64,000 bases of DNA from Octopus vulgaris (Eukaryota). Both the position numbers and the translations under genes were made by a program. Of the stretch, positions 19,339 through 60,378 are shown one piece after another (position 1 is the stretch's first letter; each line of letters opens with the position of its first letter). The notes below the pieces were generated by a model. That model was not told the DNA's origin. It saw only the letters and a program-made list of their open reading frames with translations, and did not search any database. The stretch spans positions 14,074,001 to 14,138,000 of the forward strand of contig OX597842.1 of the NCBI GenBank assembly GCA_951406725.2. Reading direction: 5' to 3'.

Positions 19339-19624
19339 TAGATATATATACAGAATTATATATGTATATATCGTCACATGCGTGAACGAAGTATTTTCCT
19401 TAAAGTATCACACTCATATATCCTTACATTTAGCAATGGGCCCACATTCAGAGAGAGAGAGAGAGAAAGAGAGAGAGAAGGAGAGTAAGAAGGAGAGACA
19501 GAGGGTATGACGTGGCAGCATAGGAAAGAATGGGTGACGGTGCCTCAAACGAAATAGGGGAATCATTACATACTTGGAAATATATCTTCAATGAAATACT
19601 ATAAATATAAATGAATCAACTTAC

Positions 19625-19693
19625 AGAGTTGTTAAGCGGGAAAGAGTTTGGAAGATTTGTGCTTCGATCTTCATGCCATTACCACCCAAATAC
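19625..19693 (-). CDS. LRR exon, class A (69 bp): YLGGNGMKIEAQIFQTLSRLTT(L)
   Basis: ttttacag|...|gtaagt; tail of ORF 19621..19980. Confidence 0.82.
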
Positions 19694-22181
19694 CTGTAAA
19701 ATAAAATGATATTAAGGACTTGTATGGATCCGATTTGTAACAGGATATTAAATATCATGTCTAAATAATTAGATGATGGAAGAGATGCAGAGTAGATTAC
19801 GATTTGGATAACAATGATAGGGTTAATGGTGGTGGTGCAGTTGATGGTGATGTTGTTGGTGGTGGCAGTGGTAGTTGTTTTAATGATGTATATGATCATG
19901 AAGTGGAGAACGTGAAAATATGATGGCAGTGTTGATGGCGATGATATTATGACCCTAATGATGGGGTGGGGTGTTAACACTGATTATCCAGCTAATCACG
20001 GGGATTAGCATGTTTATGATGATCAACAATATTATAGTGAGAATGATGATGCTGTTGGTGATGTTTGTGTTGGCGATGATGTTGATGTTGTTGATGATGT
20101 TGAAGATTGTGCATCTGATCATGGCGTTTTACGGTTATGAATGATTCGGATGATGAAGTGGACAATCTTGAAGTTGACGATGTGGATGATAGATAAATAT
20201 GAATATGATGAAGGAAATGATAACAGCGATGATGACAAAAGAGAAGACGTCAATAATGTTGAATGCGGCGGTAATTGTGATGGAACTACTACAAGTATTA
20301 GATGAAAAGATTAATAGCGAAATATAGAGACAGAAGAAATTATGAAGAAATCATAAAAGAGAGAAAAGGATAAACACTGGAAATATGGAAATATGAAGAA
20401 GGTGAATGAGGAATATGATAAGACACAAAAAGAAGAAAACGAAGAAGAAAATGAAGAAGGAAAAGAACAAAATCAAGAAGATATCCTCATATACACATCC
20501 ATGGATACAAGAAACAGACTTTTATTCACACACACACACACACACACACAAACACATAAGCTTATAGAGATGCAATAGAACCCTCTCACAGACCCACGCA
20601 CATTCACATTCACGCAGAATCGATATCACAAAGCACACAATCCTTCACAAATTTCTGATCGATATTCCTATTCCCTCTCGCTGTAGGTATCCATTAAACG
20701 GAGGGACACTTCCACCACCACTACTGTTGTTGCTCCTCCTCATCGCAGTCGTAGCGAACAATGTGCAAGTTGTGGTGGAGAATGAGGGGAGGAGTAATGA
20801 ACGATGAACAAGAGATAAACACCGTACATGACTTACCGACCCGACCGATTAAGACTCAAATGATGGAACACTCGCACACACTCATCCATGCACAAAAGAG
20901 ACAGACACGGAACTGCCATCACACAGAAAACACACACACACACTTACAAATACATATGAACACACACACATTTATATATACATATAAAACAAAAAAAAAG
21001 CTACAAGGATATCCAGAGGTATATGATGAGTTAGTACTTAAGTGTACAATATGTATAAATATTAAACTATTTCTAGATCATTTCTTTTCCTCCCTCTGTT
21101 CTTGTAAATAGTTTGGCATATACTCAAAAGTATTCAAAAATTTCTATATTTTTTTAATGATATTCTTAATAATCCTCTGAATAACCCTAAACTTTAACTG
21201 TGTACAATATAGCAACACTCTTTAACTTTAGTACTACATGATAAGACTTCCCCTGTTTCATTATCAATGGTCTGCTAGTGGGCGACACCCTTGTCAGCTA
21301 ACATCTTGTTTTAAGCATTCCTTTACCAACCCTCATGATATTACTTCCAATAAATCTTCATTTTTATAACTATACCATCTATGATTACTGTCTGCTCCAT
21401 CAGCCCCACCCCTAAAAGATACTGCCCCTTTGTTCTCTCAGCCTTAGATATACAAGGATTTGATAAACTCGTCTATAAATTAAAAACAAAAGATCATCCA
21501 CAGGCAGTCTGTAACGACGTATATCTTCTTGATACCTTAGTGGCTTCTTATGCTGGAGTGAAGGCTGCATGTTCTTTGTCTATCACCTTAACTTCTCGGA
21601 GATTTTAGTTATAATTATACTAATCCGTCCATCTGTTTTAATTCAATTAAATTCTATGTCATTGTGCAACTGATAATTGCTCCGCATTTAATTTGATGTA
21701 ATGATAGCATTGTTCGACTAAATGGAGTTATGTGAAAAAATCCTACTGCAATAAGTCTGGATATTCTTGTTGCTTATTTTGATTTTAATCACCTTACGTT
21801 TAAATTTTATGGATAATACCGGTTGCTGTATTGTATACAGAATCCAAATATTTGCTACACACACACACACACACACACACACACAAACACACACGCACAC
21901 ACATTGACACACACACACACACACACACAAACACATATATATATATATATATATATATATATATATATATATATATATTTACATATGTATTTACATATAT
22001 ACATATGAATGCAAATCATATTTGCACCCAAATGTCACACTCTCAATAGCACACTTTCGACAGGAATTCATAGCAGAGGTAAAGGCAGGTGAGGGAGATT
22101 AAAATGAAATATGGGAAGACATTAAATATAAAAAAGATATATCGTCAATGAAATATTATAAACAACACTGATTCAACTTAC

Positions 22182-22253
22182 AGAGATGTTAAACTGGAAA
22201 GATTTCGGAATATTTCTCCTTTCATTTCTTTGATATCATTAAAACTCAAATTC
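22182..22253 (-). CDS. LRR exon, class B (72 bp): NLSFNDIKEMKGEIFRNLSSLTS(L)
   Basis: ttgacag|...|gtaagt; stop-free LRR. Confidence 0.87.
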
Positions 22254-58001: not shown

Positions 58002-59353
58002 CCGACCGGTTTCCCTAACATCAATAATCAGCAAGATGTTCGAAACCATCCTTAAGAAAAGTATGATGCTCCTCCTCCTAAACACAGCCTCTATCTCTGA
58101 TTCCCAACACGGCTTCGTGCCGAAGAGATCATGCTTGACCAACTTACTAGTAATGGAAGAATTGGTGACGCGCATCCTCGATGATACTGATGCTGTTGAC
58201 ATCGTTTTATTGGACTTTGCCAAAGCTTTTGACTCGGTAAACCACCGCCTATTACTTGTCAAGCTTCAAGCATATAGTTTCCATCCGATATTGTACGATG
58301 GGTTGGTGCCTTCCTCTCAGATCGCTCCTTCCAAGTCCAAGTTAATGGTTCGCGGTCCGACGTCTCCAGTGCGAGCAGTGGCGTGCCTCAAGGTTCAGTG
58401 CTTGGGCCCTTGTTGTTCTTAGTCTTCATAAATGACTTGTCCGACGACCTCACGCAACACACCCTTCTATTTGCCGACGATATCAAACTGGTCGCTCCTC
58501 GCGGTGATATAGAGGATCTTCGTCGATGCCTCCACCAAATTTGGAAGTGGTCTAACGATTGGGACCTGTGTCTGAACGTGTCAAAATGCTGTCATCTGCC
58601 TGTTGGCTCTCCTCCTGCAACTCAACTTGATTTCGAGCCGGGTCGTCTGCTGCTGGAGAGGACCGATCAGGTAAAGGACCTGGGTATCTTGGTGGATTCC
58701 TCCTTTTCGCCTTCGGCCCAGTGCGTCCATGCTGCCAACAAAGCACGCGGAATTCTGTTCTTGATTCGACGGTCATTCGGAATGCTCACAGCAGCCATAT
58801 TCCTACCACTCTATGTCACGCTGGTGAGACCCATATTGGTATGGGATTCAAGCCTCTTCTCCTTATCTCCTCAAAGACATACAGCATCTCGAAAGAGTCC
58901 AGAAGCTGGCTACCCGCATGGTTCATGGTCTCAAAAATTTGTCCTACGAAGAAAGGCTGAGGACGCTCGACCTTTATTCTCTTGAAAAACGCCGCCGCCG
59001 TGGTGATCTCATTCTCGCCCACAACATCATAAGCGGAAAGTGTAACCTCTCGAAAGAGCTGTTCTTCACTCCTGCTCCAGAGCGTCGGCTGCGGGGTAAT
59101 TCCGAAAAGCTCTACCTGCGACGATTTCATCTCAATCGAAGGAGAGGAGCTTTCTCCGTCCGGGTTGCGGATCCGTGGAACAAGCTGCCAGACGAGATGG
59201 TGAAGATGCCGACGACCGCTCGGTTCAAAGACTCCATTGACCACAAGTGGCCTGAACTCTTTACATGAACACCCTGTACCTAACTCCATGTCCCCCTACA
59301 TGGCCTTGCTATTTGCTTTTGAGCCAAATTAACTAACTAACTAACTAACTAAC
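58002..59353 (+). mobile_element. CR1-clade LINE (duplicate)
   Basis: ORFs 57877, 58383 and 58918; same tail and insertion site. Confidence 0.93.
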
Positions 59354-59569
59354 ATTTAGCAATGCGTTCGCACTCACTTTCACAGTCACAGAAAAACAAT
59401 GACACAAGCCGTTGGAGACAGAGAAGGAGAGTAAAAAACGAGACAAAGGGTATGACGTGGCAGTATAGGAAAGAATGGGTGACGGTGCCTCAAACGAAAT
59501 AGGGGAATCATTACATACTTGGAAATATATCTTCAATGAAATACTATAAATATAAATGAATCAACTTAC

Positions 59570-59638
59570 AGAGTTGTTAAGCCGGAAAGAGTTTGGAAGA
59601 TTTGTGCTTCGATCTTCATGCCATTACCACCCAAATAC
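59570..59638 (-). CDS. LRR exon, class A (69 bp): YLGGNGMKIEAQIFQTLSGLTT(L)
   Basis: ttttacag|G TAT TTG ... ACT CT|gtaagt; LRR consensus one residue short. Confidence 0.82.
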
Positions 59639-60378
59639 CTGTAAAATAAAATGATATTAAGGACTTGTATGGATCCGATTTGTAACAGGATATTAAATAT
59701 CATGTCTAAACAATTAGATGATGGAAGAGATGCAGAGTAGATTACGATTTGGATAACAATGATAGGGTTAATGGTGGTGGTGCAGTTGATGGTGATGTTG
59801 TTGGTGGTGGCAGTGGTAGTTGTGTTAATGATGTATATGATCATGAAGTGGAGAACGTGAAAATATGATGGCAGTGTTGATGGTGATGATATTATGACCC
59901 TAATGATGGGGTGGGGTGTTAACACTGATTATCCAGCTAATCACGGTGATTAGCATGTTTATGATGATCAAAAATATTATAGTGAGAATGATGATGTTGT
60001 TGGTGATGTTTGTGCTGGCGATGATGTTGATGTTGTTGATGATGTTGAAGATTGTGCATCTGATCATGGCGTTTTACGGTTATGAATGATTCGGATGATG
60101 AAGTGGACAATCTTGAAGTTGACGATGTTGATGATAGATAAATATGAATATGATGAAGGAAATGATAACAGCGATGATGACAAAAAGGAAGACGTCAATA
60201 ATGTTGAATGCGGCGGTAATTGTGATGGAACTACTACAAGTATTAGATGAATAGCGAAATATAGAGACAGATTAAATTCATAATTACGGAGATGTACTTG
60301 CATAGCAAGTGATTTGATCTGAGATCGTGTGCTGAAACGAAAACAATTGCAGCGTGGAAGGTGCTTGTAAGCCATTTA

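What the first reader, a model, noticed from the sequence alone, without database searches (positions are those of the whole stretch)
19490..60270. ~20 kb tandem duplication with a chimeric junction cassette: unequal crossing-over between LRR cassettes
Seen: three class-A cassettes. The middle one (39050) has the left flank of the 59570 copy, including the CR1 insertion that is absent at ~19420. It has the right flank of the 19625 copy, whereas the 59570 copy instead has a fold-back insertion and visibly more diverged sequence after 60575. Inference: non-allelic recombination between two older A cassettes duplicated the intervening B-C-pseudo-D block and added four LRRs (285 nt) in frame. The same event in reverse would delete them, predicting copy-number polymorphism.
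Basis: partly seen in the sequence, partly recalled or inferred. Interest (0 to 1): 0.72.

Follow-up and report, generated by a model that had tools for sequence, protein, structure and literature searches.

The report
Repeat-adding duplication in octopus receptor gene
A 20-kb block inside an octopus cell-surface receptor gene is present twice in a row, adding four in-frame leucine-rich-repeat exons, and it likely arose when two near-identical stretches mis-paired and recombined, an ordinary way for such receptors to change length, here with signs that the swapping went on afterwards.

Summary
Observation confirmed. The block (19469-38894 and 38895-59414, plus a third 870-bp A core to 60278) lies in an octopus LRR adhesion GPCR whose LRRs are single phase-2 exons. 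It adds 69+3x72 = 285 nt in frame, plus one dead exon. The middle A core switches from A3-type to A1-type alleles at 39365-39608. A tandem mis-join of haplotypes is unlikely: a sister gene 1 Mb away has the same two-unit layout, and across the unit's left half the four units group by position (31 of 46 sites), not by locus. The old A cassettes are only about 80% alike in their flanks but 97-98% alike in the core, so the core was likely homogenised first and then served as the crossover substrate. A second exchange later overwrote the right half of unit 1. Contig depths in four public runs hint at copy-number differences, but no read or contig spanning the junction was seen. The mechanism is known from other LRR arrays, and this scan has already noted the gene family on other DNA. 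Verdict: a new member of a known kind.

The parts
19469..38894 (.). Duplicated unit 1 (19,426 bp): A1 core, B1, C1, pseudo-exon, D1, CR1-like copy
38895..59414 (.). Duplicated unit 2 (20,520 bp): A2 core, B2, C2, pseudo-exon, D2, CR1-like copy
19469..20341 (.). A1 core: left member of the 870-bp near-identical repeat; left edge at an (AG)n run
38895..39766 (.). A2 core: chimeric junction cassette (A3-type left, A1-type right)
39365..39608 (.). Inferred crossover interval. Its left bound rests on one site; without that site the interval is 38945-39608
59415..60278 (.). A3 core: right member of the 870-bp repeat; right edge at the fold-back insertion
59570..59638 (-). LRR exon A3, 69 nt, phase 2-2
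52842..52913 (-). LRR exon D2, 72 nt
50475..50546 (-). LRR pseudo-exon of unit 2 (approximate; no donor site, internal deletion)
47827..47898 (-). LRR exon C2, 72 nt
41559..41630 (-). LRR exon B2, 72 nt
39050..39118 (-). LRR exon A2, 69 nt
32336..32407 (-). LRR exon D1, 72 nt
29957..30028 (-). LRR pseudo-exon of unit 1 (approximate); shares a 19-nt deletion with U2 and the sister gene's U2
29005..30750 (.). Second switch point: unit 1 changes from unit-1 type to unit-2 type sequence (the shared deletion narrows it to about 29005-29977)
27320..27391 (-). LRR exon C1, 72 nt
22182..22253 (-). LRR exon B1, 72 nt
19625..19693 (-). LRR exon A1, 69 nt
37501..38833 (+). 5'-truncated CR1-like LINE (RVT_1 hit; clade name recalled), present in all four units, absent at A1
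58002..59353 (+). Second copy of the same CR1-like insertion
42798..43422 (+). LINE fragment (RTE-like by recall) found only in unit 2 of both sister genes
60279..60574 (.). Fold-back, MITE-like dispersed insertion marking the right edge of the homogenised core
60575..61027 (.). Old right flank of A3, 77-83% like 20335-20616
19335..19421 (.). Old left flank of A1, 78-80% like the pre-CR1 flank at 37402-37482 and 57897-57983
12478..12549 (-). Downstream LRR exon (older A-like cassette)
7695..7766 (-). Downstream LRR exon
6363..6434 (-). Downstream LRR exon (1.3-kb duplicate of the previous cassette)
205..276 (-). Last LRR exon before the cap exon; GAIN, GPS and 7TM exons follow outside the window

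Best explanation
The window holds two tandem copies of a 20-kb, four-exon block of an octopus LRR adhesion-GPCR gene, likely made by unequal crossing-over inside an 870-bp A core that had likely been homogenised beforehand by gene conversion. Steps: (1) An old duplication left two B-A blocks around D, pseudo-exon and C (flanks about 80% alike: shown; age order inferred). (2) A CR1-like LINE entered left of one A and a MITE-like element right of it (shown). (3) Conversion made the two A cores, and separately the B cores, 96-98% alike, while the piece between the insertions stayed old (pattern shown, process inferred). (4) A crossover at about 39365-39608 duplicated the block (allele switch shown, process inferred). 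(5) The region was copied into, or shared with, a sister gene 1 Mb away (shown). (6) A later exchange replaced the right half of unit 1 with unit-2 sequence (mosaic shown). Every exon is a multiple of three with phase-2 ends, so each such event would lengthen or shorten the LRR solenoid without breaking the receptor.
For: Allele switch in A2 and in the sister gene's A2. Core distances 1.5-3.5% against flanks of about 80%. A1-A3 core distance (2.2% here, 3.5% in the sister gene) is about as large as the distance between units (U1 left vs U2 2.3%; sister U1 vs sister U2 2.9%), as expected if conversion came first. Same three-A layout at C29:15.12-15.16 Mb. Units group by position at 31 of 46 informative sites left of 29004 and at 2 of 41 right of 30751; 0 of 2000 permutations reach that contrast. 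One LINE insertion is unit-2-specific in both genes. A distant paralogue on C8 has one 69-nt A exon and one D-C pair in the matching order. The 13 window exons join without a stop, and all 12 junction codons are Leu. Exons vary less than flanks across six copies (3 of 141 vs 115 of 1667 sites, p = 0.03). Structural LRR codons have pN/pS about 0.2.
Against: No read or contig was seen bridging the junction from the A3-type left flank to the A1-type right flank. The crossover's left bound rests on one SNP. The sister gene's A2 carries the A3-type 8-bp deletion to the right of the switch, so tracts are patchy and the order of events is not unique. The direction of conversion could not be fixed. 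No transcript evidence was obtained, and the gene's first exon is not found in the assembly: the array runs into a gap, with no LRR or signal exon between the gap and the next gene.
Confidence: 0.72

Rival explanations
1. Crossover first, conversion later: a single exchange between the old, about 80% alike cassettes (or a replication template switch at the (AG)n run or the MITE edge) made the duplication, and the outer core was homogenised afterwards.
For: The core edges coincide with a microsatellite and an insertion. Later exchange between units is shown. Several deletions in the units end in (TA)n runs.
Against: The A2 switch lies inside the core in both genes, not at an edge. A1-A3 core distances are no smaller than the distances between units, whereas later conversion would make them smaller.
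Confidence: 0.2
2. Assembly artefact: two haplotypes of a single unit were joined in tandem through the 870-bp core, which also yields a chimeric middle cassette.
For: U1-U2 distance (1.51%) is near the 1.22% heterozygosity reported for O. vulgaris (one passage, 10.1101/2023.05.16.540928). No bridging read was seen.
Against: Four distinct units exist in two places. A double artefact would group them by locus, but by-locus sites are 8 of 46 and 12 of 41, and a LINE insertion is shared by position. If the second place were the other haplotype, both haplotypes would carry the duplication. In run X2, contigs of the unit's first intron are deeper (about 140) than contigs of old paralogous cassettes (about 10-26), not half as deep (weak, because the tool warns that depth is no copy number).
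Confidence: 0.04
3. The duplication is real but has no effect on a protein, because the gene is 5'-truncated or the extra exons are skipped.
For: No signal-peptide exon was found for this gene. Dead exons are scattered in the array. All 6 variable exon sites among the recent copies are non-synonymous (too few to test).
Against: Splice sites and frames are intact in all 13 window exons. Exons are more conserved than flanks. The downstream exons matched by tblastn through GAIN, GPS and 7TM show no stop in their exon parts. The missing 5' end coincides with an assembly gap.
Confidence: 0.12

Closest known systems
Octopus-specific adhesion GPCR expansion, group 3 (Ritschard et al. 2019, PMC6408891; passages seen)
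   Same: GPS plus class-B 7TM, LRRs reported in 5 of 22 members, tandem clustering. Named homologues P0006-P0013 have the same LRR, GAIN, GPS, 7tm_2 layout.
   Different: The passages seen do not describe one-LRR exons, block duplications or exchange between genes. Annotated homologues seen hold 1-18 strict LRR motifs; this gene has 48 intact LRR exons before an assembly gap. I did not place the gene in their tree.
Tetrahymena 90-bp exon LRR arrays (PMC6564038; passages seen)
   Same: One LRR per exon, phase-2 introns, a junction codon split 2+1, variable exon number, unequal crossing-over and conversion within and between genes, LINE copies beside the units.
   Different: Here the exons are 72 or 69 nt, units are 1-20 kb multi-exon blocks in an animal membrane receptor, and a single breakpoint can be mapped.
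Ectocarpus ROCO and LRR-kinase genes with 72-nt LRR exons (PMC3341825; passages seen)
   Same: 72-nt, 24-residue LRR exons that are shuffled in frame.
   Different: Those are GTPase and kinase genes with reported positive selection on the concave face. My test for that here was not robust.
Intragenic multi-exon copy-number variants made by unequal crossover, such as human complement receptor 1 long homologous repeats or LPA kringle IV-2 (recalled, no call)
   Same: An in-frame block of several exons, 5-20 kb long, gained or lost between homologous introns.
   Different: Those are genotyped polymorphisms; polymorphism here is only hinted at.

Membership tests
NAHR tandem duplication | Direct repeats flank the duplicated segment, with a third, hybrid copy at the junction | tested here: met
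   Three A cores; A2 is A3-type left and A1-type right
NAHR tandem duplication | Breakpoint inside a long stretch of near-perfect identity | tested here: met
   No diagnostic difference between A1-type and A3-type cores over 244 bp (19940-20183), and none over 419 bp to its left
NAHR tandem duplication | Junction exists in DNA molecules (spanning reads) | tested here: inconclusive
   No contig bridges it. Left-flank plus right-flank depth exceeds core depth in 3 of 4 runs, clearly only in X2
NAHR tandem duplication | Reciprocal deletion or copy-number variation segregates | tested here: inconclusive
   Core to right-flank depth ratio about 2.0 (X2), 2.9 (X5), about 3 (X8) against 1.5 in the assembly; each run has a different species label
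Adhesion GPCR (class B2) | 7tm_2 domain with a GAIN domain and GPS motif upstream | tested here: met
   tblastn with P0002, P0004 and P0006 finds the ordered exons 28-48 kb left of the window; the homologues carry PF00002 and PF01825
Adhesion GPCR (class B2) | LRR exons spliced into one transcript with the 7TM exons | tested here: inconclusive
   Collinear exon chain like P0006-P0008; no transcript seen
Adhesion GPCR (class B2) | N-terminal signal peptide | tested here: inconclusive
   Found for the sister gene at C29:15066787; not found for this gene, whose array ends at a gap
Octopus group 3 adhesion GPCRs (PMC6408891) | Falls in that clade in a 7TM tree | not tested
   Only homologue names and domain content were compared
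Exon-shuffled LRR arrays (Tetrahymena, Ectocarpus type) | One LRR per symmetric exon, number varying between paralogues | tested here: met
   48 intact of 62 profile hits in this region, 34 of 40 in the sister region, 50 of 50 on C8, 12 of 13 in the neighbouring gene
Exon-shuffled LRR arrays (Tetrahymena, Ectocarpus type) | Diversifying selection on concave-face residues | tested here: inconclusive
   Face pN over pooled pS 1.9 (p = 0.018) on 42 of 54 tree edges but 1.26 (p = 0.29) on 47 of 54; synonymous change at face codons is as high as non-synonymous

The most novel reading that the evidence does not exclude
The octopus LRR adhesion-GPCR cluster works as a recombination-diversified receptor system at three scales: single exons are converted, multi-exon blocks such as this one expand and contract, and a whole ectodomain block of about 120 kb is swapped between genes with different signalling halves. 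The sister gene shares the LRR-to-GAIN block at 97-99% of aligned bases while its TM5-7 exon is only 48% identical in protein. Individuals would then differ in which LRR head sits on which GPCR tail.
Probability: 0.3. Interest if true: 0.65.

Novelty: new member of a known kind. Interest (0 to 1): 0.36.

Why it matters
The event itself is a textbook kind of intragenic duplication. Its value is as a mapped example of how an octopus-specific receptor family changes its repeat number: conversion builds a perfect repeat, a crossover copies four LRRs, and later exchange blurs the units. It gives a ready PCR assay for the junction and for the predicted deletion allele. It also warns that these genes are probably under-assembled and mis-annotated, since arrays of about 50 LRR exons end in gaps. 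If head-tail swapping between receptors is real and polymorphic, it offers a testable route to varied recognition in a family reported as enriched in suckers, skin and nerve cord (PMC6408891, passages).

Tried and rejected
A first six-frame LRR motif scan was uninformative because each motif is split by an intron. A homologue search with one exon plus intron-coded residues found no candidate. No RNA holder listed among 24 runs; this is no evidence on expression. Depth of the unit against its unique left flank, in further animals of one species, was not obtained, so polymorphism within a species is untested. I first read contigs ending at 38843 in runs X5 and X8 as an empty CR1 site, then dropped it: the tool cuts reads at that repeat. 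Outgroup flanks did not fix the direction of core conversion. A stretch at 18530-18690 looked like 28S rRNA from memory; Rfam found nothing there or in the window. The idea that the second locus is just the other haplotype was rejected as the main reading, because its 7TM half aligns at only 68-81%. Positive selection on the binding face was not robust. No fold or complex prediction was run; neither bears on the DNA event. Literature searches for the specific claim: searches gave no paper describing these exon arrays or their exchange. The library lacks most subscription journals, and I did not open the supplements of PMC6408891, which list gene domains and positions.
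Full report
OBSERVATION. A self-comparison shows 19469-23418 matching 38895-42797 (94.3%), 23736-24530 matching 43423-44221 (94.9%) and 24459-39766 matching 44974-60278 (95.5%), with 19469-20341 present three times. The layout is A1, unit, A2, unit, A3, with periods of 19,426 and 20,520 bp. A splice-aware scan finds 13 minus-strand LRR exons in the window. Each unit holds one 69-nt and three 72-nt exons, 285 nt in all, plus a dead exon without a donor site. The 13 exons join without a stop, and all 12 split codons are leucine, so the introns are phase 2. 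Four of five exons tested give weak LRR_8 hits, below the curated cut-off as expected for single repeats; the A exon gives none. The CR1-like copy (RVT_1; clade name recalled) lies left of A2 and A3 and is absent at A1, where the empty site aligns at about 80%. The fold-back piece right of A3 is a dispersed MITE-like element, and beyond it A3 is 77-83% like A1.

THE GENE. Window numbering is extended below 1 and above 64000 for flanking DNA fetched. A search with a 7TM exon of the neighbouring sister gene returns octopus adhesion GPCRs at 92-95%. Longer homologues have LRR, GAIN, GPS and 7tm_2 domains. tblastn with them finds the ordered exons of this gene from the last LRR (205-276) through the cap, GAIN and GPS to the 7TM exons at -28 to -48 kb. 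Upstream the array goes on: 48 of 62 profile hits are intact exons, up to an assembly gap, and no first exon was found before the next gene. The family is the octopus adhesion-GPCR expansion or close to it (PMC6408891, passages). This scan noted the same family on other DNA; my assignment was made before that look-up.

IS IT REAL? A mis-join of two haplotypes through the A core would give the same chimeric middle cassette, and the U1-U2 distance (196 of 12,987 filtered columns, 1.51%) is close to the 1.22% heterozygosity reported for O. vulgaris (one passage). So divergence alone does not decide. The genome does. A second, inverted gene at C29:15.07-15.24 Mb has three A cores and two units, and exactly four copies of the unit interior were found (a lower bound). 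Its 7TM half aligns at only 68-81%, so it is most likely a paralogue. If each locus were a single unit assembled twice, units would group by locus. Of 87 informative sites inside the unit (A cores left out), the 46 left of 29004 give 31 by position, 8 by locus and 7 crossed; the 41 right of 30751 give 2, 12 and 27. A LINE fragment is present in unit 2 of both genes and in neither unit 1. The duplication therefore predates the split of the two loci, or sits on both haplotypes.

PUBLIC RUNS. Four runs with four different species labels were laid as contigs on 38780-40700. No piece bridges the junction, and in all four the contigs break at 39702-39731, near the core's right edge. Depths of core, A1-type right flank and A3-type left flank were about 292, 142 and 197 in X2; 681-821, 251-266 and 567 in X5; 35-44, 12 and 34 in X8. 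In X10 the core was 70 and the right flank nearly absent beyond 39793. The assembly predicts 6:4:4. Left plus right exceeds core clearly in X2 and narrowly in X5 and X8, which would require cores with the junction's flank combination. The ratios differ between runs and from the assembly. The tool warns that these depths are no copy number, so this is a hint of copy-number difference and of an under-assembled array, not a measurement. Variation within one species was not tested.

MECHANISM. At sites where both A1 copies differ from both A3 copies, A2 is A3-type at all 8 sites up to 19939 (A1 numbering) and A1-type at 20184, 20242, the 8-bp indel and 20335-6. The sister A2 shows the same switch, with two exceptions (19494 and the indel). 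The crossover maps to 39365-39608, or to 38945-39608 if the one site at 19939 is discounted. The near-identical tract ends at an (AG)n run on one side and at the MITE-like insertion on the other, and a third B cassette is likewise about 96% alike while the intron piece between the insertions stays old. A1-A3 core distances (2.2% and 3.5%) are about those between units (2.3-2.9%). The simplest order is conversion first, then crossover in the new repeat (inferred). A distant paralogue on C8 has a single 69-nt A exon after its B exon and one D-C pair downstream, which fits an older duplication of the B-A block. Exchange continued: unit 1 switches to unit-2 type between 29004 and 30751 (0 of 2000 permutations as strong), and shares a 19-nt deletion in the pseudo-exon with both unit-2 copies.

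FUNCTION. Exons vary less than their flanks across six A and six B copies (3 of 141 vs 115 of 1667 sites, p = 0.03). Across 55 distinct exons from the two genes (69-nt A exons and the last LRR exon left out), structural codons have pN/pS about 0.2. Face codons give 1.9 or 1.26 depending on the edge cut-off, so diversifying selection is not established here, although earlier notes of this scan claim it for sister genes. All six variable exon sites among the recent copies change a residue, too few to test. The likely effect is a solenoid four repeats longer with a repeated surface; no transcript or ligand evidence was obtained.

COMPARISON AND VERDICT. One-LRR, phase-2 exon arrays reshaped by unequal crossing-over and conversion are described in Tetrahymena (PMC6564038, passages), and 72-nt shuffled LRR exons in Ectocarpus (PMC3341825, passages). 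Searches for an octopus description of these arrays or their exchange gave no such paper (listings only, open-access library). The event is a new member of a known kind; interest 0.36. The boldest reading left open is a receptor system diversified at three scales, including swaps of a 120-kb ectodomain block between genes with different 7TM halves: probability 0.3, interest 0.65 if true.

Noticed in passing
G000:C29:15,094,800-15,215,800 vs window numbering -30,100 to about +81,500: An inverted sister gene shares about 120 kb (LRR array to the start of GAIN) with 1.4-2.6% substitutions in most long blocks, but has a different 7TM half (48% protein identity in the TM5-7 exon) that belongs to another subfamily. 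Identity fades patchily across the GAIN exons. Possible ectodomain swap.
   Followed up: partly
G000:C29:14,182,000-14,229,548 (L035-L040): The same gene continues into a higher-order array of roughly 9.5-kb, three-exon units that ends at an assembly gap; no first exon was found before the next gene.
   Followed up: partly
L031:1082-2588 (window numbering 65082-66588): A third, about 96% identical B cassette with sharp ends. The sister gene's B1 carries many of its alleles, so B cores were exchanged too.
   Followed up: partly
window 6200-8232; G000:C29:15,174,500-15,177,200: A 1.3-kb one-exon cassette is present twice here and three times in the sister gene.
   Followed up: partly
window 24480-27050 and its three homologues: Three separate deletions (about 0.75, 0.8 and 2.5 kb) in three of the four units each end in (TA)n runs, suggesting microsatellite-mediated loss.
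   Followed up: no
L042 (window numbering -18,050 to -14,800): A long CR1-like element with an open 1038-aa endonuclease-RT frame sits in a downstream intron of the same gene, 95-97% identical to the truncated copies in the units.
   Followed up: no
G000:C8:79,128,000-79,268,000: A paralogue with 50 intact, mostly diverged single-LRR exons; useful as an outgroup for exon order.
   Followed up: partly
G000 C29, C30, C31, C8, C9, C10 and others: A search with one 7TM exon gave 61 matches among 100 candidates, about 50 of them long and strong, so the family is large and clustered.
   Followed up: no
window 18530-18690: A G+C-rich piece that resembles large-subunit rRNA by recall; no Rfam match.
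   Followed up: partly
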